Shown here: positions 34,330 through 60,353 of the stretch, piece by piece
Position numbering within the stretch: the stretch's first letter is position 1
Layout: the number at the start of each line of letters is the position of its first letter
Source of the DNA: Dehalococcoidia bacterium
Lineage (GTDB): Bacteria; Chloroflexota; Dehalococcoidia; JAUSIH01
Length of the DNA stretch: 64,000 nt
NCBI GenBank assembly: GCA_030648205.1
Contig: JAUSIH010000037.1
Span: 3,744 to 67,743, forward strand
Direction of reading: 5' to 3'
Position numbers and translations under genes: made by a program
The notes under the pieces: model-generated
Database searches by the model: none
The model's input: only the letters and a program-made list of their open reading frames with translations
What the model was told of the DNA's origin: nothing

Positions 34330-34340
34330 CTCAAACACAC

Positions 34341-46905: not shown

Positions 46906-47385
46906 TTAGGTCGAACTCCAGGGGATGGCGCCGATGGGCCCCACGCTCCAGTCGGGTTCGTATTGACTGTGGCCGAGGGAGAAGAGCGCGACGAGCAGAA
47001 GGATGGCGAAAGCCCACCAGTAGCGGCGGAGCGCGCGGTTGGCCAGCCCCTCGTGGTGCCTGGCAACGCGCCTGGCCCGCTCAATCTGACGATGCACCGC
47101 GTCGTGGGAGACGGCTTCACGTCGCGCCCAGCGGCTCAGAAGCTCGGCGCACTCCGCTTGGGCGAACGCGATCTCCTGGCGCGCGGACGGGCTCGTGGAG
47201 CCGACGGCGAGGGACGAAAGGTAGCTGTGCACCGACCGCAGTTGCTGCCATTCCGTCAGGCCGGGGGACTCGAAGTCCAGGGGGTTGTTGATGGTCAACT
47301 GCTGTTTGAAGAGCTGCATCTTGTTGCCCCCCTCGTTAAACGACAAGGTTAGCATGGCTGACCTTTCCACCGAAAGGCCAGCCAT
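46906..47385 (-). CDS. hypothetical protein with C-terminal TM (last gene of the minus-strand operon)
   Basis: 159-aa ORF directly downstream of lipoprotein A1. The start may be the internal Met ('MQLFKQQ'). Confidence 0.35.
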   Translation of the reverse strand: MAGLSVERSAMLTLSFNEGGNKMQLFKQQLTINNPLDFESPGLTEWQQLRSVHSYLSSLAVGSTSPSARQEIAFAQAECAELLSRWARREAVSHDAVHRQIERARRVARHHEGLANRALRRYWWAFAILLLVALFSLGHSQYEPDWSVGPIGAIPWSST

Positions 47386-47462
47386 GCTGCACAGGCGTCA
47401 ACTCGTACTAGCTACGCGCCGATCCAATGCCTCTTTCGCGGGTCGCCGCCCTGGCGTGCGGC

Positions 47463-49097
47463 TTACGGCACCACCTCTATCGCCAGCCGGAAGATGGGCA
47501 GTTGATATCCATACTCCAGGCTGGGATGGTCCTGAAGCGCGGTCAGTTGCGGCGTCTGGTACATGAAGGGGGGCTTCCCGTGCCCCTGATAGACGGTGGG
47601 GTACAGGTCAATCAAGTGCGTCCCCGGCTGGCCAGTCGCCCGCATGTTAATGACCACATCGCCTTTGCTGTTGAAGCCGCAGGCGTAGCCAATGTAGCTG
47701 TTGTCGTACGTGAGCGTGAAGGTGTTGTCAAGCTCCGTCCATCCGATGCCCTTCACGTGGACCTGGAACATCTCTCCCACCTTCACGCGGGAGGGAGTGA
47801 CCTCCACAAGACTCTGCTGGACGTAGAAGAAGGGCTCCGCGACCACCTTGTCGCCCTGCACGACCTTGAGCGTGTGCCACCCGCCGAGGTCGTCGGGGAC
47901 CTGGAAGTCCAAAGTCAGCGCACCCTGATTGTCCGATTTCGCTGTCCCCAGCGAGAGTTCCGCCAGCGCCCAGCCTCTGCCGCTCACGCGACTGCCTCTG
48001 GCCGTCATGAAGAAGACTTCGGTGGGGGTGTTGGCCGTCAGGCCCGTGACTCGCAGGGTCGCGTTGGAAAGAACGGGCCCTGTCGAGGGCGTGATGGTTG
48101 CCCGCGCTCCGGAGTTTATGGGCGTTTCACTCGCGGTGGTACGTATCGCGCTGAAGTTCAGCTTAACCACGCCCGGCTCCGGCCCGTCCAGGCTGGTGGC
48201 CGGCACGCCTGGGTCTTCCGTGACGGTGAACGTGAACTGGAAGGTGGGGGTATGACCCACTGGCGCCTGCTCCCAGTTCAGGTAGGGCACGCTCTTGTGG
48301 CCGTGCCAGAGTTCAATGACGTGTTTTCCCGGCGGCCCGCTGGCGCGAATAGCCGCCGTGGCCTGTCCACCCGTGGTGACGGTTGAAATGAACCCGGTGA
48401 ACTGGTTATCGTAGGTGAGGACCCAGGTGTTCTCGTACGGCCTCCAGCCGATCCCTTTGCCTTTGATGGTGATAGGCGTTCCTATGGGCCCTTGCGTGGG
48501 GGTGACGGTGAACTCCGGCAGGACGCGGAAGCCTCCCCGCGTCACATCCTGTCCGTCAACCACGCCGTACACGTCATGCACGCCGCCGTAGCCGTCCGGG
48601 GCGACAAGGTTCGCGCTCAGCTTGCCTTGTCCGTCGGTGACGGCGCGGCCGACAGGAACGCGCTTCTCGGTCCACTTGGCTTCGTAAAACTCTATGGTCT
48701 CCTGGCTGGGCTCCATGTCATAGCGTGCGCTCGCCGTCGCCCAGAAGAACTGCACCTCTTTGCTGGCGGGCAGGCCCTCGGCGCTGATGCTGAAGGGCTG
48801 GCCCACGCTGCCCTTGACGGGATTCACGTTGAGCGGCTTTGGGAGAGCGGCGGCGGCTGGCGCCGCCGCGGGCGCTGGCTGTCGAGGCGCGACCGCCGCC
48901 ACCGCTTCCGGCGCGCGCGGCTGCTCCATCTGCTTGGCCGCGGCCGGTGCGGCGACCGGCGCGGAACGCGGGGGTGCGGGAGAGGCCGATGAAACTCCCG
49001 GCGTACAGGCCGCCGCCAGCACAATCAGTCCAGAGAGGGCCAGATTGAATCCGGCCATCGGCAGATGTCGCTTTGGGAACGTTGCAAGGTTTTTCAT
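47463..49097 (-). CDS. uncharacterised lipoprotein 'A1' (~540 aa, internally duplicated beta-rich domains); paralog of 50037..51653
   Basis: SD 'gaaaggggggagg', then ATG at 49097. Lipobox 'VLAAAC'. Two internal repeats ('TVTPTQGPIGTPITIKGKGIGWRPYENTWVLTYDN' / 'EVTPSRVKVGEMFQVHVKGIGWTELDNTFTLTYDN'). Co-linear and similar to A2 over the whole length. Confidence 0.6.
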   Translation of the reverse strand: MKNLATFPKRHLPMAGFNLALSGLIVLAAACTPGVSSASPAPPRSAPVAAPAAAKQMEQPRAPEAVAAVAPRQPAPAAAPAAAALPKPLNVNPVKGSVGQPFSISAEGLPASKEVQFFWATASARYDMEPSQETIEFYEAKWTEKRVPVGRAVTDGQGKLSANLVAPDGYGGVHDVYGVVDGQDVTRGGFRVLPEFTVTPTQGPIGTPITIKGKGIGWRPYENTWVLTYDNQFTGFISTVTTGGQATAAIRASGPPGKHVIELWHGHKSVPYLNWEQAPVGHTPTFQFTFTVTEDPGVPATSLDGPEPGVVKLNFSAIRTTASETPINSGARATITPSTGPVLSNATLRVTGLTANTPTEVFFMTARGSRVSGRGWALAELSLGTAKSDNQGALTLDFQVPDDLGGWHTLKVVQGDKVVAEPFFYVQQSLVEVTPSRVKVGEMFQVHVKGIGWTELDNTFTLTYDNSYIGYACGFNSKGDVVINMRATGQPGTHLIDLYPTVYQGHGKPPFMYQTPQLTALQDHPSLEYGYQLPIFRLAIEVVP

Positions 49098-49133
49098 CGT
49101 CCTCCCCCCTTTCATTCGATGTACAGGCCGTTG

Positions 49134-49928
49134 CTATTCAATGATCTGGAGTCGCGTGTCCTCAGGGGGACTGCCTTGAGGAAAGATCAGGTACGGGGGC
49201 TTCCATGTGTACTTGCGCCCGTCCTTGGTGGCTATGTCAAACTCGTAGGTCAGGGCGCCCAGCGGATAGTTGAGGGGGACATCCCATTGGGTCACCCACA
49301 TGAAAGGGGCGTCAGGCTGGCGCCCGCCGGCGCGCTGGCCGAACCGCACGGTCTTTTCGTCGCCGTTCTGCATGCGCAGCTTGACGGTCGATCCATCCTG
49401 AGGTGTAAGGCGCTTCCCCGTGGATGTGTCGAACACTTCGAAGCGCCAGACTATGTTCATCCCGCGCTTGAACACGGTGGCGCCGACACAGGCGATGCTG
49501 CCCTGGATGACGTCTTCGGCATTGATCTTCAGATTGCCATGGGAGGAGGTCAGCACTTCCACGTAGACAACGAACGGGACGGGCTCGTAGAGAGAGGGTG
49601 GTGGCGGGGGTGGTGGTCGTGGCGTCGGGGCGCCGGGCACGGGCGTTGGCGCCGGTGTCCGCGGCTTGGCCAACGCCGCCGACACGAGCGCCATGCTGCC
49701 GGCTTGCTTGGCCGCGGCGGCTGCCTTCTGCTGCGCCGCCTGAATCTCCTGGTCCTTGGCGGCGAGTTGCTTCTGCAGGTCCGCTGCCTTCTTTTCCTGG
49801 GCCGTCGCCTGCGCCTTCGCGGCGTCCAGGTCTGCCTGGGAGATGCCGCTGCAAGCCGAGGCCAGCATGAGGATCGTGCCCAGCAGTCCGAACACTGCCG
49901 ACTTCTTGAACCGTATGCCGAATTTCAT
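49134..49928 (-). CDS. uncharacterised lipoprotein 'B1' (coiled-coil plus Pro-rich linker plus C-terminal domain); paralog of 51684..52493
   Basis: SD 'aaggaga', then ATG at 49928. Lipobox 'MLASACSG'. 'SQADLDAAKAQATA' coiled coil, a 'PPPPPPP' linker and the C-terminal domain 'VWRFE..D..TGKR.T..DG.TVK.R...GE......QRAGGR.PDAP.MW...WD.PLNYPLG'. Confidence 0.6.
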   Translation of the reverse strand: MKFGIRFKKSAVFGLLGTILMLASACSGISQADLDAAKAQATAQEKKAADLQKQLAAKDQEIQAAQQKAAAAAKQAGSMALVSAALAKPRTPAPTPVPGAPTPRPPPPPPPSLYEPVPFVVYVEVLTSSHGNLKINAEDVIQGSIACVGATVFKRGMNIVWRFEVFDTSTGKRLTPQDGSTVKLRMQNGDEKTVRFGQRAGGRQPDAPFMWVTQWDVPLNYPLGALTYEFDIATKDGRKYTWKPPYLIFPQGSPPEDTRLQIIE

Positions 49929-50036
49929 GCGTTCTCCTTTGTCAGTGGGGTGGTCTCGTCCATATGATGGTCGGTGCTTCAACCCAGACAAGCTGTATAT
50001 TTCGGGTCTCACCTCCGTTGGCTACCGCCTGGCCAG

Positions 50037-51653
50037 CTACGGCACCACCTCTATGGCCAGCCGGACGGCGGGCAGCTTGTATCCCAGCGACAGGGCAGGG
50101 AAGTCGTCTTTGTAGCTCAGGATGGGTACCTGGTATCCCCACGGCGGCTTCCCGTGCCCCTGATAGATCATCGGGTACAGGTCCACCAGGTGAATGCCAG
50201 GCGCGCCTGTGGCCACGAGGTTTACCGTGACGTCGCCCATGCTGTTGAAGCCGCACGCGAAGCCGATGTAGGCATTGTCATAGGTCATCGCCACGCCGTT
50301 CGTCAGCTCGGTCCAGCCCACTCCCTTGATGCGGATTGTAAAGGTCTCGCCAGCCTTCACGCGCGTTGGCGTCACGTCCACGAGGCTGATCTCGACGTAG
50401 TAGGGGACATCCGCGACAACCTTGCCCCCTTGCACCAGCTTCACCACGTGCCAGCCGCCCAGGTCGTCCGGGACCTGGATCGTCCCCGCCAGCACCCCAT
50501 TCGCGTCGGTTCTGGCCTTGAGAAGGGATGTCTCGTTCAAGCTCCACCCGCTCGGGCTGACGCGATTGCCGCGAACGGTCACCCAGAAGGCTTCCACATC
50601 GCTGTTGGGCGTGAGACCGCTCGCATTTAGCGCAGCTTTGGAGAGGATGGGGCCGGAGGCGGGTTTCAGCGTGGCGGTGGGGCCCGGCGACCGCAGGACG
50701 CCGCCCGCGCTACCTTGCGTGGTCTTGACAGCCTCGCTCACCGAGGCGACGCGGCTCGCGTCCGGCCAGTCGAGCGAGAAGGCCGGAAGGCCCTTGCTCT
50801 CGGTCACGGTGAACCAGGCGCGGAGGTCTGGTATGTGGGCGGTGCCGGACTGCTGGTTATTGAGGTACGGGACGGACTTGGCGCCATGGTTGAAGTCCAG
50901 GACGTGCTTGCCCACCGGGCCCGCGGCGCGGATGTGGGCTGTCGCCGTGCCGCGCGTGGTCACCGCCGTGATAATCCCCGTGGGCTGGTTGTTGTAGCGG
51001 AGCGCGATGGTGCTCTCGTAGACCTTCCAGCCGAGTCCGGTCATTTTGATGGTGATGGGGGTGCCGATGGGTCCTTCCTGCGGCGTGATGGTGACGTTCC
51101 GCATGATGCGGTAGCCGCCGCGCGCAACGTCGCCATTGTCCACGACGGCGAAGATGTCATGGACCTCCCCGAAGTCCTCCGGCGCCTTGAGCGACGCCGA
51201 GAACCTGCCTTGAGCGTCCGTGGTTGCCTGCCCCAGAGGCATCCGCTTCTCGACGAAATTCCTCTCGTAGAACTCGACGTTCTCCGCGGTGGCCTTCATG
51301 ACATAGCTGCCGTCCACCGTGACCCATAGCAACGTCACCGGCTTTCCGGGCGCAAGGCCGTCGCCGCTGATGGTGAAGGCGTCACCCACATAGCCCTTGC
51401 TGGGCTCGACCTTGAGCAGCTTCAGCGGTACGGGAGTGGGCGTGGGCGCCGTGGCGGGGCCGGCGCCGATCACCGGAACGTCCTGCATGTTTGGCGCAGT
51501 CGTTGTGGAAGAACTGGGGGAGGGCGGTCGCTCAGCGGGCTGCGCTTGCGGGGCAGAGACACAGGCCGCAAGCAACAGACCCGTGAGCGCAAGCATCAGG
51601 AACAGTCGTGCCCTCAAAGACCAATGCCTTGCTGATTCGTATGCGTTTGTCAT
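50037..51653 (-). CDS. uncharacterised lipoprotein 'A2' (paralog of A1)
   Basis: SD 'ggaggg', then ATG. Lipobox 'LLLAAC'. Shares '...LPxxRLAIEVVP' C-terminus and domain order with A1. Confidence 0.6.
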   Translation of the reverse strand: MTNAYESARHWSLRARLFLMLALTGLLLAACVSAPQAQPAERPPSPSSSTTTAPNMQDVPVIGAGPATAPTPTPVPLKLLKVEPSKGYVGDAFTISGDGLAPGKPVTLLWVTVDGSYVMKATAENVEFYERNFVEKRMPLGQATTDAQGRFSASLKAPEDFGEVHDIFAVVDNGDVARGGYRIMRNVTITPQEGPIGTPITIKMTGLGWKVYESTIALRYNNQPTGIITAVTTRGTATAHIRAAGPVGKHVLDFNHGAKSVPYLNNQQSGTAHIPDLRAWFTVTESKGLPAFSLDWPDASRVASVSEAVKTTQGSAGGVLRSPGPTATLKPASGPILSKAALNASGLTPNSDVEAFWVTVRGNRVSPSGWSLNETSLLKARTDANGVLAGTIQVPDDLGGWHVVKLVQGGKVVADVPYYVEISLVDVTPTRVKAGETFTIRIKGVGWTELTNGVAMTYDNAYIGFACGFNSMGDVTVNLVATGAPGIHLVDLYPMIYQGHGKPPWGYQVPILSYKDDFPALSLGYKLPAVRLAIEVVP

Positions 51654-51683
51654 GACCGCCCTCCGATCCCAGTTTAATGACTG

Positions 51684-52493
51684 CTATTCGACGATTTGAA
51701 GCCGACTGTCTGCCGTCGCGCTCACCAGCGCTGGCTGCTTCCATGTGCCAGTCGTCTTGCCATCCTTGGATGTCACAGTGATGCTGTAGTCGAGGCCGCC
51801 CAGCGGGTAGTTGAGCGGGATATCCCAAAACGCGTTCCACATCCAGGGTGCATCAGGGACGCGCCCGCCGGCTCGCTGGGACCACCGGGCGGTTATCTCC
51901 TCGCCGTGCGGGAGCCGCATCTTGACCGTCGCTCCGTCCAGGTCCGTCACCCGCTTGTCCGTGGCGAGGTCAATCGCCTCGAAGCGCCAGACGATGCGCT
52001 GCCCGCGCTTGAACACGCTGGTGGGCAGGCAGTTGACGGTGGAGGCTATGTCAAACTGGCTGGGCCTTTGTGTAGCCAGCGCCTCGACATGGAAGTAATA
52101 GGGGCCCACGGGCTGGGAGTAAGAAGCGGGAGTCACGGGCCGTGGTGGCGCCGCGACGCCGGGTGGGAGCGGCGTGGGAGTGGGAGGAGGCGGCGGCTGG
52201 GGCACTTTCTTCGCACCGATGAGCACCGTCACGCCCGCCGGGCCCGCGCTCTTCAGCGCGTCCTCTGCCTTCTTCTGCTCGGCCGTCAGCTTCTGTTGAA
52301 TGGTTGTGATCTCCTGCTGCCTGGCGGCCAGGTCCTTCTGGACAGCCGCCGTCTTCTGCTCGGCGGCGGTCGCCTGCGCCTTGGCGGCGTCCAGGTCCGC
52401 CTGGGAGATGCCGCTGCAGGCCGAGGCCAGCACCAGCGTTGCGCTCAGCGCCGAGAAAACCCCTAGCCTTTTGATACCTTTGCTAAACCCCAT
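51684..52493 (-). CDS. uncharacterised lipoprotein 'B2' (paralog of B1)
   Basis: Lipobox 'LVLASACSG'. Same coiled-coil, poly-Pro and C-terminal domain architecture as B1. Confidence 0.6.
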   Translation of the reverse strand: MGFSKGIKRLGVFSALSATLVLASACSGISQADLDAAKAQATAAEQKTAAVQKDLAARQQEITTIQQKLTAEQKKAEDALKSAGPAGVTVLIGAKKVPQPPPPPTPTPLPPGVAAPPRPVTPASYSQPVGPYYFHVEALATQRPSQFDIASTVNCLPTSVFKRGQRIVWRFEAIDLATDKRVTDLDGATVKMRLPHGEEITARWSQRAGGRVPDAPWMWNAFWDIPLNYPLGGLDYSITVTSKDGKTTGTWKQPALVSATADSRLQIVE

Positions 52494-52555
52494 GATGACC
52501 TCCTTTATCTCCTTTTTGGTGCGAGCCCAAAATACCGGCGCCGAAATGGCTTAGT

Positions 52556-53158
52556 CTATGGTCCCTTGTAGTCCAGGTTGGGGTACAAGGGGGCCGTAGG
52601 GCGGGTTACCTTGATGGCCTTGATCTCAAAACCGCCGCCTTTTGAAGATGCATGGCACGCGTTGCAGCCGTCAATGGCGTTGTCGTAAGCCTTTTCAAAG
52701 GCGGCTTTGTCTTTGGCCTTGGCCGCTGCTTCCAGGGCTTTCAGCGCTGGCGCCCAGTCACTCATGGCCTGCGCTCTTCCCGGGCGTGTCACCGCAATGG
52801 TGTTAAGCTCTTCGCCAGCGCGATAGATCTCGAAGCCGGCGAATTCCCAGTTTCCTGCCTGAGCAGCAAACCACATCAGGTTGAAGCTCTCGGTGAACTC
52901 GCGCATCCTGCCGGCTGTGCCAGGCTGGATAGCCCAGAGGGGCAGCTTTGTGTCAACCTTGGTGAACTTCTCGTCTATGATCTTGGTTACAGCTTCCGCG
53001 GAAGGGCCAGACGCACCTGCCGGGCCGGCCAGGCCTTGCGGTCCGGCAGGGCCGGGTGAGCCGGTAGGGCCAGCCGGGCCCTGGGGGCCAGCACACGCGG
53101 CCAGGACCAGAGTCATCAGGAGTCCTAGGATCAGAACAGGCCCGAGTTTTCTGAGCAC
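52556..53158 (-). CDS. cytochrome c'-like (class II, C-terminal CxxCH) lipoprotein with N-terminal collagen-like GXY repeats
   Basis: GTG start at 53158 with SD 'aaaggagg'. Lipobox 'LVLAAC'. Ten consecutive GXY triplets 'GPQGPAGPTGSPGPAGPQGLAGPAGASGPS'. Helical domain ends in 'AIDGCNACHASSKGG', a heme c site near the C-terminus as in cytochrome c'/c556. Confidence 0.6.
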   Translation of the reverse strand: MLRKLGPVLILGLLMTLVLAACAGPQGPAGPTGSPGPAGPQGLAGPAGASGPSAEAVTKIIDEKFTKVDTKLPLWAIQPGTAGRMREFTESFNLMWFAAQAGNWEFAGFEIYRAGEELNTIAVTRPGRAQAMSDWAPALKALEAAAKAKDKAAFEKAYDNAIDGCNACHASSKGGGFEIKAIKVTRPTAPLYPNLDYKGP

Positions 53159-53211
53159 GGAAACCTCCTTTGTTTGCTTACTTTGTGCAGGTCGCCGGGT
53201 AGCTCCTTTTC

Positions 53212-54189
53212 TCACCTCCTGCCGTGGACTCGGGAGATGCTGAAGGCCTGGTACAGGATGAACCCGAAGATTCCCCAGACCGCCAGTACAACAAGGGCCA
53301 GGCCAGAAGTGGCCCAGTGGTCGAGGAGTTGGTGGATGAGAGGCCGGTCCGCCACGCCGACTGTAAGAGACGCCGCCCACGGAGGTATGATGCCCAGCCC
53401 CGTCGACTCCATGACGTAGGCCGACGGCGGCGCGCCCGTGGACTGGATCGCTATGGCCTGCTCGCTCTCAGCGTACACGCCCATGCCCTCGAAGCGTGCC
53501 GTGATGGCGTACTGGTTCGTGGCAAGAGTGGGCTTGAAGTCCAGGAAGGCGACTCCTTTGGCATCGGTCTTCGCGGAGCCGATGTCCATCTTGCCCTTCC
53601 TGCCCGCGAACTCGGCGTCCAAGAGGAAGCGGACCTCCGCTTTGGGAACGGGGTTGCCGGAGCCGTCGTTCAGCGAGGCCATCAGGGCGACGGTCTCGCC
53701 TCCCGTGACCCAGGAAGAGGGAGAAACGTTCAGCTTTGTCGGGGTCAGCGCCGCGGCCCCACCGCCGCCACCGCCGCGCCGGACATTCAAGGCGCCGCGT
53801 TGCATGAAGTCGTGGATCTCGCAGTCCAGGTCGCACTTGAAGCGGAACGTGCCCGGTTTGTCCGCGAGGAACTTGAAGGTGAACTCTTTGTGTTCGGACG
53901 TGAGCTTGTCCGACTCCAGCTTGTATCCTTCCAGCACAATGATATGCTCGTCATGGATATACCCTTTGTGCGCCCACACGAAGGTCATCTCCACGAGCTT
54001 GCCCTGCTCGACTTCAATGACCGGGTCCCCTTCCTTGCCGTTGTAAGCGAACCCGGAGTCTGTTATCTCCACCCGCAGCTTCACGGGGTCATCGGCGCGG
54101 GCGACTCGCAGGGGCGTCAGCGCCAACAGAGCGACCAGGACGGCGGCGACTATTGCCGCGCGTCGTGTCCAGCTAACCATTTCTCGCAC
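53212..54189 (-). CDS. membrane-anchored cupredoxin-domain protein (type-1-like Cu site) with Ig-like domain and C-terminal TM
   Basis: N-terminal signal/TM. Cupredoxin beta-sandwich with 'WAHKGYIHDEH' and 'FKCDLDCEIHDFM' (C-x2-H-x2-M as in amicyanin, with an extra Cys 4 residues upstream). Gly-rich linker, a second beta domain and the C-terminal TM 'LALVVLAVWGIFGFILY'. Confidence 0.55.
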   Translation of the reverse strand: MREMVSWTRRAAIVAAVLVALLALTPLRVARADDPVKLRVEITDSGFAYNGKEGDPVIEVEQGKLVEMTFVWAHKGYIHDEHIIVLEGYKLESDKLTSEHKEFTFKFLADKPGTFRFKCDLDCEIHDFMQRGALNVRRGGGGGGAAALTPTKLNVSPSSWVTGGETVALMASLNDGSGNPVPKAEVRFLLDAEFAGRKGKMDIGSAKTDAKGVAFLDFKPTLATNQYAITARFEGMGVYAESEQAIAIQSTGAPPSAYVMESTGLGIIPPWAASLTVGVADRPLIHQLLDHWATSGLALVVLAVWGIFGFILYQAFSISRVHGRR

Positions 54190-55552
54190 CTCCCGTCTGC
54201 GGCGTGAGCGTGGTGGGCCCGGCCGCTAGTCCCGCGGACGGCGCCGACTGCTTGGCTTTCTCCTGCTCCCATCCTTCCTTCATCTCCCACACGGGGATTA
54301 TCGGAAAGAGCTTGGTGAAAAGCGTCAGGGTGAGCGCGAAGCCTCCGAAGGATGCCACGGTGACAGCTATCTCCACCCATGAGGGGGTATAGACGCCCCA
54401 GTCATACGGCAGAAGGGGCAGGGAAAGCGTTGGAACGACGATGATGAACCGTTTGATCCACATGCCGATGTTCACCAGGATGGACCCGATCAGCATCAGT
54501 GGGATGGTGCGCGTCCGGCGGAACGCCGCCCAGATGATGGGCAGAATCTGACCGAAGAAGAATCCCCCCCAGACCAGGGGGCTGTACTTGCCGAGCAGGA
54601 GCGACTCCAGCAGGAGTTTATCCTCGCTCGCCAGCTTGTAGCCTATGGTCAGGTACTCGGCGAAGGTGAAGTAGAGGTAGCCGATGCCGAATACCACGAG
54701 CAGGTAGCTCAGGTAGCGGAAGTGCTTCTCCGTTAAGTACTCCTCCAGGTGATAGACCTTGCGGAAGATGATCATGAGGGTGATGAGCATGGCCGTGCCG
54801 GAATACAGGGCGCCGACGGCGAAGTAGGGGGCGAAGATGGTGCTCGCCCAGCCCGCGCGGTAGGTCATGCCAAAGATCCAGGAGACCACTGAGTGCACCG
54901 TCACGCCGATGGGGATGATGATGAGCATCATGATGCCCGCGCCGCGCTCCAGGTGCCTGTGCTGCTCGGGCAATCCCTGCCATCCCAGGGAGACCAGAGA
55001 ATAGACGCGGTGACGCAGCCCGGATACCTTGCCGGCGAATTTGTCGCGCAGGAGGGCGGAGTCCGGAATAATGAACAGGAACAGGTAAATGACGCTGGCC
55101 GTCAGGTACGTGCTGATAGCCAGAATGTCCCACAGGAGGGGCGATTCAAGACGCCCGTACAGAAGAATGTTGGCGACCCGATCAGGGCGTCCCATGTCAA
55201 CTATGGGCATGAGGCCGCACATCAGCAGGGCGGAGACGGTGGTGATTTCCGCCAGGCGCGTGATCGGTCGGCGCCACTCCGCGCCCGTGATGCGCAGAAT
55301 GGCGGAGATGAAGGTGCCGGACATGCTCACTCCGCTGAAGAAGACGAAGTTGGAGATGTACAGGCCCCAGACCACCGTGTCACGCATCCCCGTGACGGCA
55401 AGGCCTCTCTGGAGCTGCTCGTAGTAGGCGACGAAGCCCACCCCCATAAGCACGACCAGGACGGCCATCCAGGCGTACCATGCGCGGGACGTATGCAAGA
55501 GGGGGCGATAGACCGTCTCTTCCAGTCGTTCTTCACGACTCGCGGTCGTCAT
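54173..55552 (-). CDS. NrfD/PsrC-family polytopic quinone-interacting membrane subunit
   Basis: 459 aa with ~10 TM helices and the typical NrfD N-terminal segment ('AWYAWMAVLVVLMGVGFVAYYEQLQRGLAVTGMRDTVVWGLYISNFVFFSG'). The start ATG at 55552 overlaps the stop of the FeS subunit. Confidence 0.8.
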   Translation of the reverse strand: MTTASREERLEETVYRPLLHTSRAWYAWMAVLVVLMGVGFVAYYEQLQRGLAVTGMRDTVVWGLYISNFVFFSGVSMSGTFISAILRITGAEWRRPITRLAEITTVSALLMCGLMPIVDMGRPDRVANILLYGRLESPLLWDILAISTYLTASVIYLFLFIIPDSALLRDKFAGKVSGLRHRVYSLVSLGWQGLPEQHRHLERGAGIMMLIIIPIGVTVHSVVSWIFGMTYRAGWASTIFAPYFAVGALYSGTAMLITLMIIFRKVYHLEEYLTEKHFRYLSYLLVVFGIGYLYFTFAEYLTIGYKLASEDKLLLESLLLGKYSPLVWGGFFFGQILPIIWAAFRRTRTIPLMLIGSILVNIGMWIKRFIIVVPTLSLPLLPYDWGVYTPSWVEIAVTVASFGGFALTLTLFTKLFPIIPVWEMKEGWEQEKAKQSAPSAGLAAGPTTLTPQTGGARNG

Positions 55553-56481
55553 TACTTGCCTCCTTCATGGGTCTTGTCCAGAGTGGCCCCCAGTTCCTGC
55601 CATGAGCGCGGGTTCTGGGTAGCGCGCTCGTCGCCGACGTGGTGGCCGTATTCCTGGCCGTGGCCGGGGATGTACCACACCCGTGGCCGCGTGCCCAGCT
55701 CCTCCTTCAGGCGGTAGGCGCTATTCTCGCCCAGGAACGTGGAGAGCTTGACGATGTCCGTGCCGTTGGTGGCGATGTCCTCGGTCAGATCGCCAAGATA
55801 GATCGCCTTCATGGGGCACTTCTCGGCGCAGGCGGGGAGCTTCCCATCCGCCGTGCGGTGCGCGCAGAGCATGCACTTCTCCACGGTACCCTGGCGGTGG
55901 GGAACGGGGAATTCAGGGCTGTACTTGGCGAATGTGGCCCCGGGCGGGTTCTGCGGCTGGTTCCAGTTGAAGGAGCGAGCTCCGTAGGGACAGGCGGCCA
56001 TGCACATGCGGCAGCCAATGCACCGCTCGTGGTTAATGAGGGTGACTCCCTCCTCCGTCCTGTAGGTGGCCCCCACCGGGCAGACCTTGACGCAGGGCGG
56101 GTTCTCACACTGCATGCACGGGCGGGGCAGGTAGTAGGTGTGGCCTGCCTCGCTTTTCACGTTCATGACCCTGAGCCACTGCTGCCCCGCCGGGACGAAG
56201 TGTTCCGTGTTGCAGGCCTCGGTGCACGCGGGCGGCTTGTCCTGCGTGACGCAGCCCTCGCACTTCCGCAGGTCAATCACCAATGTCCACTGGCGAAGCA
56301 CGCCGCCAGCCTTTTTGCCGGCTTCACCGGATGCGGTCCCGGTGGATTTACCCATCATCGAGGGCACAAGCGGCGCTGCGACGGCGGCCGCTCCGGCCAC
56401 TCCAATCAGTGCTAACAGCCGTCTCCGGCTGATTTTCCCGGCTTCGCCGGACTGGTTGGGGTCGCTGGTGTCACTGTCCAT
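55552..56481 (-). CDS. TAT-exported 4x[4Fe-4S] ferredoxin-type subunit (NrfC/PsrB/DmsB-like)
   Basis: Twin-arginine signal 'SRRRLLALIGVAGAAAVA'. Four Cys clusters ('CEGC..C...C', 'CMQCENPPCVKVCP', 'CIGCRMCMAACP', 'CMLCAH...CAEKCP'). SD 'aagggagggg' precedes the ATG at 56481. The upstream ATG at 56538 lacks an SD. Confidence 0.8.
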   Translation of the reverse strand: MDSDTSDPNQSGEAGKISRRRLLALIGVAGAAAVAAPLVPSMMGKSTGTASGEAGKKAGGVLRQWTLVIDLRKCEGCVTQDKPPACTEACNTEHFVPAGQQWLRVMNVKSEAGHTYYLPRPCMQCENPPCVKVCPVGATYRTEEGVTLINHERCIGCRMCMAACPYGARSFNWNQPQNPPGATFAKYSPEFPVPHRQGTVEKCMLCAHRTADGKLPACAEKCPMKAIYLGDLTEDIATNGTDIVKLSTFLGENSAYRLKEELGTRPRVWYIPGHGQEYGHHVGDERATQNPRSWQELGATLDKTHEGGK

Positions 56482-56640
56482 GGTCTCCCCTCCCTTGACT
56501 CGATCGAGGAACCCTCCCGCTCCTCGGCGCATATTCATATGCCAGATTCATTATGGCCGTTTAGAGGGGAGGGCAACATCCGAAAAACCTCGCGTCTTCC
56601 AGCGCGTGGAAACACCTGCTGTCAACACGTAGTCGTTCGG

Positions 56641-56670
56641 TTGCGATTCAAAGCGCGCCGCAAATATACT
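56641..56670 (+). promoter_or_regulatory. sigma70-like promoter TTGCGA-18-TATACT for the two-component system; divergent region shared with the NrfCD-like operon
   Basis: -35 at 56641-46, -10 at 56665-70. It lies in the 220-nt divergent intergenic region, 56482-56701. Confidence 0.45.
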
Positions 56671-56701
56671 AGAATAGAGTGTGAAAGCAGGTGCAGGGCG
56701 T

Positions 56702-57370
56702 ATGGAGCCGATTCGGGTTGTCCTGGGGGAAGACCACTCGCTGGTGCGCGAGGGGACGCGGCGCATCCTTGAGCAATACCCTGACCTGGTTGTCGTGGGA
56801 GAGGCCGGCGATGGGGAGCAGGCGCTTGAGATGGTGGGACGCCTGCAGCCAGACGTTGCTATCCTGGACGTTCGGATGCCAAAGCTCAGCGGCATCGAGG
56901 TAGTGCGTCGGATAAAGGCGTGCTCCCCGAACACGAAGGCATTGATGTTGACTGCCTACGATGACGACGACTACATTCTGGCATCAATGGAAGCGGAGGC
57001 GGCGGGCTATCTTCTTAAGACCGCCAGGGCCAGTGAGCTGGTAGAGGCGGTCCGGAGTGTCCATGCGGGCGAGTCTGTCCTGCACCCTGCTATCGCAGCG
57101 AAGGTGGCTCGCTTGTGGGGGCGCCGCCGGGTCAAGGTGGAGCAGGAGCCCGCCGAGGCGCTCAGCCCGCGGGAGCGCGAGGTGATGGACCTCGCCGCCA
57201 AGGGCCTTCGCAACAAGGACATAGCCGAGAAACTGTCCATAAGCGTGCGGACCGTGGAGGGACATTTCAATAGCATATTTGCCAAGCTGGGTGTCTCCTC
57301 CCGCGTTGAGGCTATTCTCTACGCGGTGTCGTTGCACACGGTCACTCCTGAAGAGGACAAGCGGACATAA
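56702..57370 (+). CDS. NarL/FixJ-family response regulator (REC + LuxR HTH)
   Basis: 'IRVVLGEDHSLVREG...VAILDVRMPKLSGIEV' receiver domain. The C-terminus 'LSPREREVMDLAAKGLRNKDIAEKLSISVRTVEGH' is a LuxR-type HTH. Confidence 0.85.
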   Translation: MEPIRVVLGEDHSLVREGTRRILEQYPDLVVVGEAGDGEQALEMVGRLQPDVAILDVRMPKLSGIEVVRRIKACSPNTKALMLTAYDDDDYILASMEAEAAGYLLKTARASELVEAVRSVHAGESVLHPAIAAKVARLWGRRRVKVEQEPAEALSPREREVMDLAAKGLRNKDIAEKLSISVRTVEGHFNSIFAKLGVSSRVEAILYAVSLHTVTPEEDKRT

Positions 57371-57372
57371 CT

Positions 57373-58941
57373 ATGGCGATTGACTACGTACGCAACGGCG
57401 ACCAGAGTTCTTCCTCGCGGCCCTTGGACGGGTTGGTTGAGAAGGGCAGGCATCGGCTTTCGCCTTATCTTCCCCGTTTCAGGGACTGGCGCTTCTGGGC
57501 GGTCCAGGGCTTGATAGCACTCATCGCGGGGACGCACACTATCCTGGAAGTCATGCGCCACAGCGGGTACACGGTCTTCGTGGGCCCTCCGGACGCGCAG
57601 GTGGTCCTGCTCTCTTTCATACCCGTCTCGCTGTTCTTCGTCCCCGTGGTGTACGCAGCCCTTAACTTCGGCCTGGCGGGCGCTGTGGCGACCGCCATAT
57701 GGTGTACGTTTCTTACAACACCCAACATCATGCTTCATTCGGAAACGGAGCGCATCCGCGAAGTCTTGCAGTTGGGGATTGTGGACGGCGTCGCGGTCTT
57801 CGTGGGGCAGCGCGTTAACCGGGAGATGAGCGCGCGGAAAGAGGCGGAAGACGCCAGCGCGGCGCTGCGTGTGTCAGAGGCCAAGTACCGGGGGCTTTTT
57901 GAGTCCTCCCCGGCGCCCATCCTCGTCCTGGACTCGCAGGGGGTCGTTTTGGAGGCCAATCCGGCGGCGGGCGTGCTGCTGGCCAGGTCTTCCGACGCTC
58001 TCAAGGGCGCCCATGTTTCTGACCTTTTTGAAACGCCGGGGGCCGAGCGGATACTGGGCTTGCTTCAGGAGGGCAGACGCGAAGACTCGTACGTTGTTTT
58101 GAAGTCCCTGGCCGGTGAGGAAACATACTTGGAGCCGATGGGGACGCGTATCAACGGCGGCCAAGCCAAAGCCGTCGTTCAGGTATTACTCAGGGACGTG
58201 ACTGTGGAGCGCCAGAGGCAGTTGGGCCTGCGGGCCTACGCCGCCCACGTGCTCCGCGCGCAGGAAGAAGAACGCAAGCGCATCGCCCAGGAGCTCCACG
58301 ATGAGACCGTCCAGACCCTCATTCTGCTGTGCCGTCGCCTGGATGTAGTGGAGACCGGGTGCGGGTCTATGCCCTCGTCCGCCATGGATGGGTTGAGGGA
58401 GGCCCGGAAGACGGCTGAAGCAGTCGTCAGAGACCTGCGGGATTTCAGCAAGGCTCTGCGGCCGCCGACGCTGGACGACCTTGGGTTGGTCACTTCCATT
58501 CGCAGGATTCTGATGGACCTGATGGACAGGGCCAAGGTGAATGGCCAGATAAAGGTGGTGGGGGAGGAGCGGCGCCTGCCGCCGGACCTGGAGCTTGCCT
58601 TATTCCGGATCGCGCAGGAGGCAATGCGGAACGTGGAGCGTCATGCCCAAGCGCGGGAAGTGACGGTGACCCTGTCCTTCTCCGGACGCGAGGCCAGGCT
58701 GGACGTTGTGGACAACGGCGTGGGCTTTGTGCTGCCTCCCCACTCGAGCGACATGGCCGCGTTCGGCCGGCTGGGGCTTCTCGGTATGCGGGAGCGGGCG
58801 GAACTGCTGGGCGGCAGGCTTGAGGTCAAGTCCACCGCTGGCAAGGGCACGCGGATCACCGCCTCTATTCCCGCTCCCGCTGACTCCACCTCACAGCCCC
58901 TCAGCCCCACCGGAAGCGCTGGGGGGAGAGGCAGTCCCTAA
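57373..58941 (+). CDS. membrane sensor histidine kinase (HisKA_3/NarX-DesK type) with PAS domain
   Basis: N-terminal TM helices, a PAS-like region ('LFESSPAPILVLDSQGVVLEANPAA'), H-box 'RIAQELHDETVQTL' and HATPase 'VVDNGVGF...GLLGMRERAELLGGRLEV'. Confidence 0.8.
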   Translation: MAIDYVRNGDQSSSSRPLDGLVEKGRHRLSPYLPRFRDWRFWAVQGLIALIAGTHTILEVMRHSGYTVFVGPPDAQVVLLSFIPVSLFFVPVVYAALNFGLAGAVATAIWCTFLTTPNIMLHSETERIREVLQLGIVDGVAVFVGQRVNREMSARKEAEDASAALRVSEAKYRGLFESSPAPILVLDSQGVVLEANPAAGVLLARSSDALKGAHVSDLFETPGAERILGLLQEGRREDSYVVLKSLAGEETYLEPMGTRINGGQAKAVVQVLLRDVTVERQRQLGLRAYAAHVLRAQEEERKRIAQELHDETVQTLILLCRRLDVVETGCGSMPSSAMDGLREARKTAEAVVRDLRDFSKALRPPTLDDLGLVTSIRRILMDLMDRAKVNGQIKVVGEERRLPPDLELALFRIAQEAMRNVERHAQAREVTVTLSFSGREARLDVVDNGVGFVLPPHSSDMAAFGRLGLLGMRERAELLGGRLEVKSTAGKGTRITASIPAPADSTSQPLSPTGSAGGRGSP

Positions 58942-59131
58942 GGAGGCCTCTGTGCCTGCCGCTCGGAATAGTACCAGCGGTAAGGCAGAACTCAGCCCCC
59001 CGCTTCTCCGCCTCGTGCCATTCCGCGGCAGGCCCCTTCTGACATGCAATCGTACCGTTGTCTTGCCCCAGGCGCGAGTCTGACAGAGCCTGTCGCTTTG
59101 CTGTCGGAGCTTTGGAAGATTGCCGTGTCGC

Positions 59132-60289
59132 TTACTTGGCCCGCTTGCCTTTGGGAGGGGTGCTCCGGCCCTTGAAGCGCTTGAGCAGGCCGGTGAGGGT
59201 GTCGCGGAAGCCACCGTACTCCAGCTCGCTGTAGGGGAGCATGGCGGCCCCGGACCATCCCTGGTCGCGCATGTACAGGGCCTTCTCCTGGGCCTTCGTC
59301 CGCACCACGTCCCAGGCGACGTTCGCGAAGAAGTCGCAGTGATTCTCGGAGAAATAACCCGCCACGTCCATGGAGAACCCCACGCAGGAGACGAGCGGCA
59401 GGCAGTATATCCCCGTGACGGGCGTGCCCAGGGGGACGGGCATGAGAGGCATGACGTGCGAGCCGCGCGCGTCGCCGCCCACGTAGTGCGCCTTGGCGAA
59501 GGGGGAGAGCAGCTCTTCCGGCGCGGGGAAGATGCCCTGGTTGCGGACGAGCGCCACGGGGTCGTCTTTGCCGGTGTATGTGCCCGCGATGCTGTGAAGC
59601 CGCTGCGCCGACACGGATACGGCCACGTCGCCCGTGGTGCGGGAGATGATCGCGTCAATGCCGAACCGCTCGTTGTCGCGGAGCAGCATGGCGATCTGGT
59701 AGTAGTCCTCCGGAGCGTTGAGTTCAATGATGCTGTCCGTTCCGGTGTGGTCCATGTCAATGATGCGGAATGTGAATCCCTTGATCATCTTGGGCAGCAT
59801 CAGGCCGGCGCAGTACATGGGGTCGGCGAAGGCGAGGAACAGGGGAAGGTTGTAGGCGCCGGGGCCGCACTTGTCGGCGGCGAACATGCAGAAGGACTCG
59901 GCGGCCCGGTTCTTGTTGGTCTTGACGGGGTTGTGGTCAAACTCCACCTCCGCCACGGCGGGGCCCGCCCCCCGGATGTTTCCCGACGGCGCATCCACCA
60001 GCAGGTCCTGTCCGGCCCCGTACAGCCCGGAGCGCTGTGCTATGGACGTCGCCTGTACAAAGGTGTTCCATGCGAACTGGTGGATGTCCGAGTTGCCCTC
60101 ACCTCGCGTGTGCGACATGAGTATGGCGATGTCGTCGCCGGTGTGGGACACAAAGCCGTCTATGACGAGTTTCTTGCCGATGGCGGATTTGACCGCCCGG
60201 CGCACCGACTCCACCATCTTCTGGGATGGCGTGGTGTGGCCGCCAATGGAGCCGACGTCTGCCTTCAGGATGGACAGGGTCATTTTCAT
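59132..60289 (-). CDS. fbp: bifunctional fructose-1,6-bisphosphate aldolase/phosphatase (FBPase class V)
   Basis: 'LSILKADVGSIGGHTTPS...FVSHTGDDIAILMSHTRGEGNSDIH' is highly characteristic of archaeal-type FBP aldolase/phosphatase. 385 aa. Confidence 0.85.
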   Translation of the reverse strand: MKMTLSILKADVGSIGGHTTPSQKMVESVRRAVKSAIGKKLVIDGFVSHTGDDIAILMSHTRGEGNSDIHQFAWNTFVQATSIAQRSGLYGAGQDLLVDAPSGNIRGAGPAVAEVEFDHNPVKTNKNRAAESFCMFAADKCGPGAYNLPLFLAFADPMYCAGLMLPKMIKGFTFRIIDMDHTGTDSIIELNAPEDYYQIAMLLRDNERFGIDAIISRTTGDVAVSVSAQRLHSIAGTYTGKDDPVALVRNQGIFPAPEELLSPFAKAHYVGGDARGSHVMPLMPVPLGTPVTGIYCLPLVSCVGFSMDVAGYFSENHCDFFANVAWDVVRTKAQEKALYMRDQGWSGAAMLPYSELEYGGFRDTLTGLLKRFKGRSTPPKGKRAK

Positions 60290-60353
60290 GGTGTTATCTC
60301 CTTCTTGATGTGTTCAGTGGGGCCACGGGCGCCAGGATGCCAATGTTATATCG

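What the first reader, a model, noticed from the sequence alone, without database searches (positions are those of the whole stretch)
46906..58941. Candidate novel extracytoplasmic electron-transfer module: Mo-less NrfC/NrfD-like pair, cupredoxin, cytochrome c' and duplicated lipoproteins, divergent from a NarL-type two-component system
Nine co-directional, tightly spaced or overlapping minus-strand genes form one apparent operon. From its 5' end at 56481 they are: a TAT-exported 4x[4Fe-4S] subunit; an NrfD-family quinol-interacting membrane subunit; a cupredoxin anchored at both termini; a lipoprotein cytochrome c' with collagen-like linker; lipoprotein pairs B2-A2 and B1-A1; and a small TM protein. 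There is no molybdopterin, NiFe or multihaem catalytic subunit, which would be present in Psr/Nrf/Dms/Ttr/ACIII. The FeS/NrfD pair therefore looks like a stand-alone quinol dehydrogenase feeding one-electron carriers (Cu and haem c) on the outer face of the membrane, with four uncharacterised lipoproteins as candidate terminal partners. The adjacent, divergently transcribed HisKA_3 kinase and NarL-type regulator share the 220-nt promoter region, consistent with dedicated regulation. I do not recognise this gene combination as a described complex.
Basis: partly seen in the sequence, partly recalled or inferred. Interest (0 to 1): 0.85.

Follow-up and report, generated by a model that had tools for sequence, protein, structure and literature searches.

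The report
ActC-like quinol module with unknown lipoproteins
An uncultured Chloroflexota bacterium carries a conserved gene cluster joining a small quinol-handling membrane module and a copper protein to two very conserved surface lipoproteins of unknown family, which probably form an undescribed branch of its respiratory chain.

Summary
On the minus strand, 56481 to 46906, lie a Tat-exported protein with 16 cysteines for four Fe-S clusters, an NrfD-family membrane protein, a cupredoxin with an Ig domain and a C-terminal membrane anchor, a cytochrome c'-like lipoprotein, two B-A lipoprotein pairs and a small ORF. A NarL-type two-component system is transcribed divergently.

New here:
- The membrane subunit is specifically ActC-like (Alternative Complex III, E 1e-65). 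No other ACIII subunit is present.
- NrfC-NrfD-cupredoxin-B-A recurs in 17 of 25 informative Chloroflexota genome loci. It is also recovered when searching from the cupredoxin side.
- Where the cupredoxin is missing, c-type cytochromes or a cytochrome b/c complex sit beside B-A.
- A and B match no Pfam or NCBIfam family and no solved structure beyond generic Ig folds. A is nearly as conserved as the Fe-S and quinone subunits, with an invariant Cys and four conserved His.
- The cytochrome c' and the small ORF are lineage-specific additions.

Most likely this is a quinol:carrier oxidoreductase serving A/B as a terminal extracytoplasmic redox unit. Its substrate and electron direction are unknown. 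I rate it a new variant of a known kind, of real interest.

The parts
55552..56481 (-). NrfC/ActB2-like Tat-exported ferredoxin subunit (309 aa) with 16 Cys, enough for four [4Fe-4S] clusters
   Evidence: RBS + ATG at 56481. SRRRLL Tat motif and four Cys motifs. Fer4_11 at 1.1e-22. Best NCBIfam hit is DsrO, 192.8 bits, below its cut-off of 200. PDB: ArrB 2e-33, PsrB 4.5e-31, ActB C-terminal domain 4e-23. Median 66% identity across 17 orthologous loci.
54173..55552 (-). ActC-like NrfD-family integral membrane quinol/quinone subunit (459 aa)
   Evidence: Pfam NrfD, 101 bits. Full-length match to ActC of four solved ACIII structures, E 1e-65 to 1e-59. Ser137, Asp142 and Arg367 match ActC Ser164, Asp169 and Arg395. 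ActC His139 is Asp here and Asp253 is Ile, in all 13 close orthologs aligned; only a divergent L058 paralog differs at the His139 position (residues from PMC8076601).
53212..54189 (-). Signal peptide + cupredoxin domain (invariant His82, Cys119, Cys123, His126) + Gly-rich linker + Ig-like (Big_3_5) domain + C-terminal TM anchor
   Evidence: A variant lacking the cupredoxin domain but keeping Ig + TM occurs in L032, L043 and L050, followed by a dihaem cytochrome c.
52556..53158 (-). Cytochrome c'-like (class II-like) lipoprotein with a collagen-like G-x-y linker (200 aa); a lineage-specific insertion
   Evidence: RBS + GTG at 53158. CNACH at the C-terminus. Pfam Cytochrom_C_2 E 5.8e-4 (sub-threshold) and Collagen E 1.2e-4 (sub-threshold, 22.2 bits against a cut-off of 27.2). 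Present in L068 but absent from L069 and from all other loci. Relatives sit in unrelated contexts.
51684..52493 (-). B2 lipoprotein: lipobox, Lpp-like coiled coil, Pro-rich linker, ~150-aa Ig-like head with an invariant Cys155
50037..51653 (-). A2 lipoprotein: four Ig-like (IPT/TIG-like) domains plus a conserved C-terminal extension; Cys467 invariant; His165, His250, His402 and His488 conserved in >=90% of distant homologs
49134..49928 (-). B1 lipoprotein, paralog of B2 (about 51% identical)
   Evidence: (P0164, 264 aa).
47463..49115 (-). A1 lipoprotein, paralog of A2 (about 50% identical); belongs to a distinct 'A1-type' subgroup seen in other genomes
   Evidence: A1 is the best hit in L021, L026, L029 and L051.
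46906..47385 (-). Small ORF (159 aa) with one C-terminal hydrophobic helix; membership in the system is uncertain
   Evidence: No family hit. Found only in the near-identical relative L069, at 78% identity, and in none of the 61 genome loci.
56482..56680 (.). Divergent intergenic/promoter region between the NrfC-like gene and the response regulator
   Evidence: Sequence. Sigma-70-like matches on the + strand at 56641-56675. No Rfam element.
56681..57370 (+). NarL/FixJ-type response regulator
   Evidence: Response_reg 3e-27 and GerE 2.5e-20. Orthologs lie next to the cluster in most loci.
57373..58941 (+). Membrane histidine kinase (N-terminal TM segments, PAS, HisKA_3, HATPase_c)
   Evidence: Orthologs, or HAMP-type HisKA_3 kinases, are adjacent in most loci.

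Best explanation
This is a conserved Chloroflexota respiratory gene cluster.

Proposed assembly (inferred unless marked):
- A Tat-exported ferredoxin subunit, with 16 Cys for four Fe-S clusters, docks on an ActC-like NrfD-family membrane protein. Together they form a small quinol-interacting module on the outer face of the membrane, essentially the ActB2/ActC core of Alternative Complex III without its haem subunits.
- A dedicated third subunit is held next to it by a C-terminal TM helix and an Ig-like spacer. It carries a cupredoxin domain with an invariant His2Cys2 site and serves as the one-electron port.
- From there electrons pass to a complex of two Sec-exported proteins. In this lineage a stalked cytochrome c'-like lipoprotein may also take part.
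- B is always a lipoprotein. In monoderm Chloroflexota it stands on a coiled-coil plus proline-rich stalk.
- A has four Ig-like domains, with four conserved His and an invariant Cys that probably bind a metal acquired outside the cell.
- A/B is the terminal, substrate-contacting unit.
- A NarL-type two-component system controls expression.

Most likely direction: quinol -> Fe-S -> Cu (-> haem c) -> A/B -> an unidentified, fairly high-potential extracytoplasmic acceptor.

Shown: gene content, family assignments, synteny, conservation.
Inferred: physical complex, metal content of A/B, direction, substrate.
For: - ActC-like identity and retained Ser, Asp and Arg of the quinol site and gate. [quoted passage not shown]
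- Tat motif and 16 Cys in the Fe-S subunit.
- Invariant His82, Cys119, Cys123 and His126 in the cupredoxin subunit.
- The NrfC-NrfD-cupredoxin-B-A order recurs in 17 of 25 Chloroflexota genome loci with enough upstream DNA. It also recurs when searching from the cupredoxin in metagenomes.
- Carrier substitution next to B-A: Ig-TM subunit + dihaem cytochrome c in L032, L043, L050 and L055; a monohaem cytochrome c lipoprotein in L020/L064 (the same contig, fetched twice), L027, L040 and L041; a cytochrome b-c fusion + cytochrome c in L010 and L012.
- A is almost as conserved as the core redox subunits. Median identities are A 57%, NrfC 66%, NrfD 63%, cupredoxin 46%, B 44%.
- Cys467 is invariant and His165, His250, His402 and His488 are >=90% conserved down to 26-35% identity.
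- A and B use Sec/lipoprotein signals, not Tat. Any cofactor must therefore be a metal ion inserted outside the cell (sequence).
- B lacks the coiled coil, and A lacks the lipobox Cys, in the diderm clade. This is consistent with envelope-specific tethering.
- The two-component system is adjacent in most loci, including NrfCD-less ones (L033, L040, L041).
Against: - A and B have no recognisable cofactor motif or catalytic fold. Only generic Ig-like sandwiches were found.
- No experiment, expression data or cultured host exists; all 61 genome loci are MAGs.
- In the Binatia/'delta' clade, B-A has no redox gene within 10 kb. This is effectively one clade, with A proteins 64-95% identical to each other.
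- A few cupredoxin genes lack B-A: L082, L088, L090, L093 and L094.
- Two ActC quinol-site residues (His139, Asp253) are replaced, so quinol chemistry is assumed, not shown.
- Electron direction rests only on analogy with ACIII and bc complexes.
Confidence: 0.55

Rival explanations
1. Same hardware, opposite direction. A/B oxidises an extracellular or periplasmic donor, such as Fe(II), Mn(II) or a reduced sulfur species. It hands electrons to the cupredoxin or cytochrome c. The ActC-like module or bc complex then feeds some of them to the quinone pool, uphill, as in the rusticyanin/bc1 branch of acidophilic iron oxidisers (that comparison is from my own knowledge).
For: - The association with a cupredoxin, c-type cytochromes and a cytochrome b/c complex fits an oxidative chain equally well.
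- QrcCD shows that NrfD-family modules can reduce quinone (PMC8076601).
- The stalked architecture places A/B far from the membrane, suited to an external substrate.
- Each subunit has a single invariant Cys, reminiscent of sulfur-carrier chemistry.
Against: - Reducing menaquinone from a cupredoxin-level potential is energetically uphill.
- The closest relatives of the membrane subunit (ActC) work as quinol oxidisers.
- No oxidase or other downhill branch is encoded beside the cluster.
- No known iron, manganese or sulfur oxidation marker is in the neighbourhoods.
Confidence: 0.2
2. A/B are non-redox envelope proteins, such as an S-layer-like canopy on a stalk, an adhesin or a scaffold. They merely share regulation or location with a quinol:cupredoxin module, whose real acceptor (for example a terminal oxidase) is encoded elsewhere.
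For: - Both models are purely Ig-like.
- Export is Sec-dependent, there is no cofactor motif, and several tandem paralogs occur.
- B-A stands alone in the diderm clade.
Against: - A is 46-69% identical across Chloroflexota classes and 52-56% to the diderm clade. It is as conserved as the Fe-S and quinone subunits, unlike typical fast-evolving surface proteins.
- Conserved polar His, Asp and Cys persist in distant members.
- Three different kinds of electron-carrier modules independently adjoin B-A.
- The cupredoxin is almost always followed by B-A.
Confidence: 0.13
3. A metal (Cu/Fe) handling system analogous to FtrABCD or EfeUOB. A cupredoxin and a polyferredoxin would change the redox state of a metal ion bound by Ig-like periplasmic proteins, for uptake or detoxification.
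For: - The cupredoxin falls in Pfam Cupredoxin_1.
- His and Cys are conserved in A.
Against: - No Ftr1/EfeU-type permease or metal transporter lies in any locus.
- B has no conserved His or Met where P19 binds Cu.
- The membrane partner is a quinone-interacting ActC-like protein.
Confidence: 0.07
4. It is simply part of a known complex: a canonical ACIII, NrfABCD, DsrMKJOP or a Psr-type molybdoenzyme whose remaining genes lie elsewhere.
For: ActC-like and DsrO/DsrP-like similarities.
Against: - There is no ActA, ActD, ActE or ActF, no ActB1 domain, no NrfA/B, no DsrMKJ and no molybdopterin subunit. This holds for the window and for about 35 homologous loci with conserved order.
- DsrO and DsrP scores are below the curated cut-offs.
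- Quinol-site substitutions are specific to this subfamily.
Confidence: 0.03

Closest known systems
Alternative Complex III (ActABCDEF), with auracyanin as acceptor in Chloroflexus
   Same: The membrane subunit aligns over its full length with ActC of four solved ACIIIs (E 1e-65 to 1e-59). The Fe-S subunit matches the C-terminal Fe-S domain of ActB. The module is periplasmic-facing and Tat-exported. A membrane-tethered cupredoxin is the likely acceptor, as auracyanin is for Chloroflexus ACIII (established knowledge).
   Different: There is no pentahaem ActA, monohaem ActE, second NrfD-like ActF or ActD, and no molybdopterin-like ActB1 domain. The Fe-S subunit has 16 Cys, enough for four [4Fe-4S] clusters, whereas ActB has 1x[3Fe-4S] + 3x[4Fe-4S] (PMC8076601). 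ActC His139 is Asp here and Asp253 is Ile. The cupredoxin is a His2Cys2 type encoded as a subunit. The cluster is obligately linked to the A/B lipoproteins.
NrfCD of E. coli NrfABCD, QrcCD, and DsrOP of DsrMKJOP
   Same: These are two-protein Fe-S + NrfD-family quinone-interacting modules without a molybdenum enzyme, which pass electrons to or from periplasmic carriers (PMC8076601). DsrO and DsrP are the best NCBIfam hits.
   Different: The partners here are a cupredoxin and cofactor-less-looking lipoproteins instead of multihaem cytochromes. DsrO (192.8 against 200) and DsrP (130.7 against 350) scores are below cut-off. No DsrMKJ, NrfAB or QrcAB genes are present.
Blue-copper (type 1) and CuA cupredoxins
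   Same: Weak sequence matches to cupredoxin domains of NirK and a multicopper oxidase align the invariant Cys119 with their type 1 Cu Cys. Only in the 6tfd alignment do the Cys and the Met line up; His126 aligns with no ligand His in either printed alignment. The C-x3-C-x2-H-x2-(L/M) spacing resembles the CuA loop C-x3-C-x3-H-x2-M (my knowledge).
   Different: A second invariant Cys is present. The axial Met is Leu in most orthologs. The loop is one residue shorter than in CuA. The metal content is unknown.
SlaA/SlaB-type stalked surface assemblies; Lpp
   Different: There is no sequence similarity. A/B are far more conserved than S-layer proteins and are linked to electron carriers.

Membership tests
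NrfD/PsrC family (Pfam PF03916) | Profile match above the curated cut-off; polytopic membrane protein without redox cofactor motifs | tested here: met
   101.3 bits against a cut-off of 25.8. Full-length alignment to the 10-TMH ActC.
NrfD/PsrC family (Pfam PF03916) | Conserved quinone-pocket Ser (ActC Ser164) and mid-membrane Arg (ActC Arg395) | tested here: met
   Ser137 and Arg367 align with them. Arg is kept in all orthologs aligned; Ser is kept in all but L009, which has Ala. Residues are from PMC8076601.
Alternative Complex III | ActC-type subunit | tested here: met
   E 1.1e-65 to 8k9e_C, 4.3e-65 to 6f0k_C, 4.7e-63 to 6btm_C and 1.1e-59 to 6lod_C.
Alternative Complex III | ActC quinol-site residues His139 and Asp253 | tested here: not met
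   Asp119 and Ile replace them in the window protein and in all 13 close orthologs aligned; a divergent L058 paralog has Ser at the His139 position.
Alternative Complex III | ActB with an N-terminal molybdopterin-like B1 domain fused to the Fe-S B2 domain | tested here: not met
   The Fe-S protein is 309 aa. It matches only residues ~796-968 of the 1039-aa ActB.
Alternative Complex III | Pentahaem ActA, monohaem ActE, second NrfD-like ActF, and ActD in the operon | tested here: not met
   No such genes are in the window cluster or its flanks, nor in homologous loci.
DsrMKJOP (DsrO/DsrP) | NCBIfam equivalog score above cut-off; DsrM, DsrK and DsrJ adjacent | tested here: not met
   DsrO scores 192.8 < 200 and DsrP 130.7 < 350. 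No DsrMKJ genes are present.
Psr/Ttr/Arr/Dms-type molybdoenzymes | Mo-bisPGD catalytic subunit encoded next to the Fe-S and NrfD subunits | tested here: not met
   None in the window or in about 35 syntenic loci.
Cupredoxin (type 1 Cu / CuA) | Cupredoxin fold with His, Cys, His (+Met) ligands | tested here: inconclusive
   Cupredoxin_1 scores E 1.2e-3, 19.3 bits against a cut-off of 27, for the window protein. The ortholog in L001 has a precomputed PF13473 hit. His82, Cys119, Cys123 and His126 are invariant, while Met129 is not. Metal content is untested.
Cytochrome c' / class II cytochrome c (PF01322) | Four-helix bundle with a C-terminal CxxCH; profile score above cut-off | tested here: inconclusive
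   A C-terminal CNACH is present. The score is 21.2 bits against a cut-off of 26.5. None of about 100 relatives has a precomputed PF01322 hit. The fold was not modelled.
NarL/FixJ two-component system | Response_reg + GerE regulator, and HisKA_3 + HATPase_c kinase | tested here: met
P19/FtrA-type metal-binding Ig proteins (FtrABCD) | Conserved His/Met Cu site; Ftr1-type permease in the operon | tested here: not met
Any described family for A and B | Significant match to Pfam, NCBIfam, PDB sequences or a PDB fold beyond a single Ig domain | tested here: not met
   The best Foldseek TM-score for A, normalised to its length, is 0.19.

The most novel reading that the evidence does not exclude
A and B together are a new family of extracytoplasmic metalloenzyme. 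They would form a terminal oxidoreductase for an as yet unidentified substrate, built only from Ig-like domains with a His/Cys metal site. It would be wired to the quinone pool through a previously undescribed minimal ActB2/ActC + cupredoxin complex, and be widespread in uncultured Chloroflexota and a Binatia-like clade.
Probability: 0.35. Interest if true: 0.85.

Novelty: new variant of a known kind. Interest (0 to 1): 0.66.

Why it matters
NrfD-family modules are the common membrane anchor of many anaerobic and alternative respiratory enzymes. The 2021 survey of the family lists fourteen complexes, none with a cupredoxin subunit or with these partners (PMC8076601). This cluster would add a minimal, haem-free relative of ACIII.

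More importantly, it points to two large uncharacterised protein families. A has more than 1,000 close homologs and 1,694 clusters at 50% identity, 240 of them at E <= 1e-30. These may be the business end of an unknown respiratory reaction in abundant soil and groundwater bacteria that have no cultured representative.

The proposal is directly testable: metal analysis, spectroscopy and electron-transfer assays on recombinant A/B, cupredoxin and cytochrome.

Tried and rejected
- An exact-sequence look-up of the window NrfD found nothing.
- The AlphaFold-database fold library was unavailable.
- Seven literature searches found no description of this gene combination. The library lacks most subscription papers.
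- My recollection that NosGH is an NrfCD-type module was wrong. The paper describes it as NapGH-like, so I do not use it as a precedent.
- A hunt for informative domain fusions among 1,694 representative A homologs gave only TIG hits and one weak Cu_amine_oxidN1 hit.
- Profile-profile comparison of B against A matched only the signal peptides. B is therefore not a detached A domain.
- There is no riboswitch or other Rfam element in the cluster. The terminator scan was uninformative.
- The long plus-strand ORFs 59120-60523 and 60525-62960 are spurious. The real genes are on the minus strand: FBPase_3, an SDR and methylmalonyl-CoA mutase.
- The recurrent Binatia-type neighbours of B-A are TctC, an LLM monooxygenase, phosphoglucomutase, a GH13-like protein, MFS and NMT1. 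I treated them as lineage synteny rather than functional linkage, because those A proteins are 64-95% identical to each other.
- The cytochrome c' family was checked as a possible universal partner and rejected.

Full report
**What is in the window**

ORF listing and translation confirm nine co-directional minus-strand ORFs between 56481 and 46906. Two plus-strand genes lie at 56681-58941. The source is a MAG annotated as a Dehalococcoidia bacterium (locus tags Q7T26_04280/85/90).

Start sites were refined from the DNA:
- The NrfC-like gene starts at ATG 56481, behind GGGAGGGGAG.
- The cytochrome gene starts at GTG 53158, behind AAGGAGG.

The genes overlap or are separated by at most 108 nt.

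Family scans give the following:
- a Tat-signal (SRRRLL) ferredoxin with four Cys motifs (16 Cys);
- an NrfD-family membrane protein (101 bits);
- a protein with a weak Cupredoxin_1 match, a Big_3_5 Ig domain and a C-terminal TM helix;
- a lipoprotein with G-x-y repeats and a C-terminal CNACH, scoring sub-threshold against Cytochrom_C_2;
- four lipoproteins with no family (A1, A2, B1, B2);
- a 159-aa ORF with no family;
- a Response_reg/GerE regulator;
- a PAS/HisKA_3 kinase.

The flanks encode a PMT_2/PA14 glycosyltransferase on one side. On the other are FBPase_3, an SDR and methylmalonyl-CoA mutase. No molybdopterin, NiFe or multihaem subunit is adjacent.

**The quinone module is ActC-like**

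Against all PDB sequences, the membrane protein matches ActC of four solved Alternative Complex III structures over its whole length (E 1e-65 to 1e-59). The Fe-S protein matches ArrB, PsrB and the C-terminal Fe-S domain of ActB.

I used the residues that Calisto and Pereira list for Rhodothermus ActC (PMC8076601):
- Ser164, Asp169 and the gate Arg395 are conserved.
- His139 is Asp and Asp253 is Ile.
- These substitutions occur in the window protein and in all 13 close orthologs aligned; only a divergent L058 paralog differs at the His139 position.

This is therefore a distinct ActC-like subfamily, paired with a stand-alone ActB2-like ferredoxin. It is not a piece of a canonical ACIII, because none of ActA, ActD, ActE, ActF or the ActB1 domain is present here or in homologous loci. 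DsrO and DsrP are the best NCBIfam hits but fall below the curated cut-offs.

**The A and B families**

- A2 has more than 1,000 close homologs at 52-69% identity. All are 'hypothetical' and mostly from Chloroflexota MAGs.
- A profile search of 1.8 billion representatives finds 1,694 clusters, 240 of them at E <= 1e-30. No informative domain fusions appear.
- B has 76 detectable homologs. Some are named 'Lpp' because of the N-terminal alanine-zipper coiled coil.
- AlphaFold models are confident (pLDDT 86.9 and 87.8).
- A consists of four Ig-like domains plus a conserved C-terminal extension. B consists of a coiled coil, a Pro-rich linker and one Ig-like head.
- Sequence profiles hit nothing in the PDB.
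- B is not a detached A domain.

Conservation is striking. Cys467 of A is invariant. His165, His250, His402 and His488, one per Ig domain, are kept in at least 90% of homologs, even at 26-35% identity. B has an invariant Cys155 and many conserved Arg, Lys, Asp, Glu and Trp residues.

Both proteins use Sec/lipoprotein signals. Any cofactor would therefore have to be a metal ion inserted outside the cytoplasm (inference).

**Synteny**

A scan of one genome per GTDB species found 61 loci, all of them MAGs. tblastn with the window proteins shows:
- B-A pairs occur in essentially every locus.
- NrfC-NrfD-cupredoxin-B-A, usually with the HisKA_3/NarL system upstream, occurs in 17 of 25 Chloroflexota loci with at least 4.5 kb of upstream DNA.

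The reverse test started from the cupredoxin in metagenome contigs:
- NrfC-NrfD precede the cupredoxin wherever upstream DNA is available.
- B(-A) follow it in 17 loci.
- Five short or atypical contigs are exceptions. L094 is a stand-alone, frameshifted cupredoxin.

Across 17 loci, A is almost as conserved as the core redox subunits. Median identities are 57% for A, 66% for NrfC and 63% for NrfD, against 46% for the cupredoxin and 44% for B.

**Carrier substitution**

This is the strongest argument that A/B are redox partners.
- In L032, L043, L050 and L055, the third gene keeps the Ig domain and C-terminal TM helix but lacks the cupredoxin domain. A membrane-anchored dihaem class I cytochrome c follows, then B-A.
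- In L020/L064 (the same contig, fetched twice), L027, L040 and L041, there is no NrfCD. A monohaem cytochrome c lipoprotein follows A.
- In L010 and L012, a cytochrome b fused to cytochrome c, plus a further cytochrome c, precede B-A.
- L009 and L032 carry additional multi-CxxCH proteins downstream.

Three unrelated quinol-oxidising or carrier solutions thus converge on the same lipoprotein pair.

**Lineage-specific parts**

The cytochrome c'-like gene is present in a near-identical metagenome contig (L068, 88-97% identity). It is absent from another close relative (L069) and from all other loci. Its roughly 100 relatives sit in unrelated contexts. One of them lies directly behind a HAMP-HisKA_3/NarL pair.

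The small ORF is seen only in L069, at 78% identity. I treat both genes as accessory.

**The non-Chloroflexota loci**

These loci are labelled Binatia, 'Deltaproteobacteria', Verrucomicrobiia or Syntrophobacter. They have B-A alone, with no redox gene within 10 kb.
- Their A proteins are 64-95% identical to one another and 50-56% identical to the window protein. They therefore count as roughly one clade, probably a single transfer.
- In this clade A has an ordinary signal peptide and B is a short lipoprotein without the coiled coil.
- This fits a soluble periplasmic complex served by diffusible carriers. In monoderm Chloroflexota, by contrast, every component is tethered, some on long stalks (inference).

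**Interpretation**

The best-supported reading is a minimal ActB2/ActC-type quinol:carrier oxidoreductase. Its dedicated His2Cys2 cupredoxin subunit, or a cytochrome c in variant clusters, connects the quinone pool to an A/B complex on the outer face or cell surface. A NarL-type two-component system provides control.

By analogy with ACIII and bc complexes, the likely direction is quinol to A/B and on to a fairly high-potential acceptor. The reverse direction (donor oxidation), a non-redox scaffold role for A/B, and a metal-handling role remain possible. They are ranked in the rival list.

Four corrections apply:
- the pair is specifically related to ACIII;
- Mo-less NrfD-family modules are not unusual in themselves;
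- the cytochrome c' and the small ORF are accessory;
- one clade has B-A with no redox neighbours.

**Novelty**

Neither the 2021 family survey (PMC8076601) nor seven full-text searches describe this combination. The module type is known, while the partners are new families. I rate it a new variant of a known kind. I give about a one-in-three chance that A/B turn out to be a truly new class of extracytoplasmic redox enzyme.

Noticed in passing
window 44054-46879 (+): A 941-aa membrane protein with a PMT_2 glycosyltransferase domain and a C-terminal PA14 domain lies convergent to the cluster. It is conserved in the same position in the close relative L069 (83% identity) but not in other loci.
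   Followed up: partly
window 59120-60523 (+) and 60525-62960 (+): These long plus-strand ORFs are high-GC artefacts. The real genes are on the minus strand: an archaeal-type FBPase_3 (59132-60289), an SDR (60354-61112) and methylmalonyl-CoA mutase (61251-62915).
   Followed up: yes
L017 12034-14983; L055 5143-7951; L074 4548-6768: Some genomes carry a second, divergent NrfC-NrfD(-cupredoxin-like) module (29-48% identity in L017 and L055, up to 70% in L074) next to the first. In L017 it has its own kinase/regulator pair. This suggests paralogous systems.
   Followed up: no
L021 6976-7692; L031 9384-10832; L039 335-1720; L052 11787-13493: A roughly 460-aa FAD/NAD(P)-binding oxidoreductase (weak DAO/Pyr_redox_2 hits) recurs next to the cluster in four Chloroflexota loci. 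Its role is unknown.
   Followed up: partly
L066 5389-8675: A homolog of the collagen-linked cytochrome c'-like lipoprotein sits directly behind a HAMP-HisKA_3 kinase and a GerE regulator. This is the same regulator type as in the window, but without NrfCD or B-A.
   Followed up: partly
L098 7651-8564: A fragment matching only the first ~65 residues of the cupredoxin protein (70% identity) is followed directly by an 89%-identical cytochrome c' gene, behind a kinase/regulator pair. This may be a rearranged or degraded version of the cluster.
   Followed up: no
L069 11060-15100: In a close relative (86-95% identity) the lipoprotein region reads B, A1-like, B1-like, small ORF. One A gene and the cytochrome c' are missing. 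This is either recombination between the paralog pairs or an assembly collapse.
   Followed up: no
L020/L064 222-8737; L022: Aldehyde:ferredoxin oxidoreductase (AFOR) genes lie near B-A in two unrelated lineages. In L064 a TRAP transporter (DctQ/DctM) lies immediately upstream of B.
   Followed up: no
window 30001-32000 and 34001-36000; 37840-38197: Two 2-kb stretches have clearly lower G+C (0.55 and 0.58, against about 0.65 elsewhere). Three tRNA genes lie at 37840-38197, just upstream of EF-Tu (38224-39447).
   Followed up: no
all 61 loci: Every genome hit for the A family is a metagenome-assembled genome. No cultured species representative was recovered with the two highly conserved peptide patterns.
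   Followed up: partly
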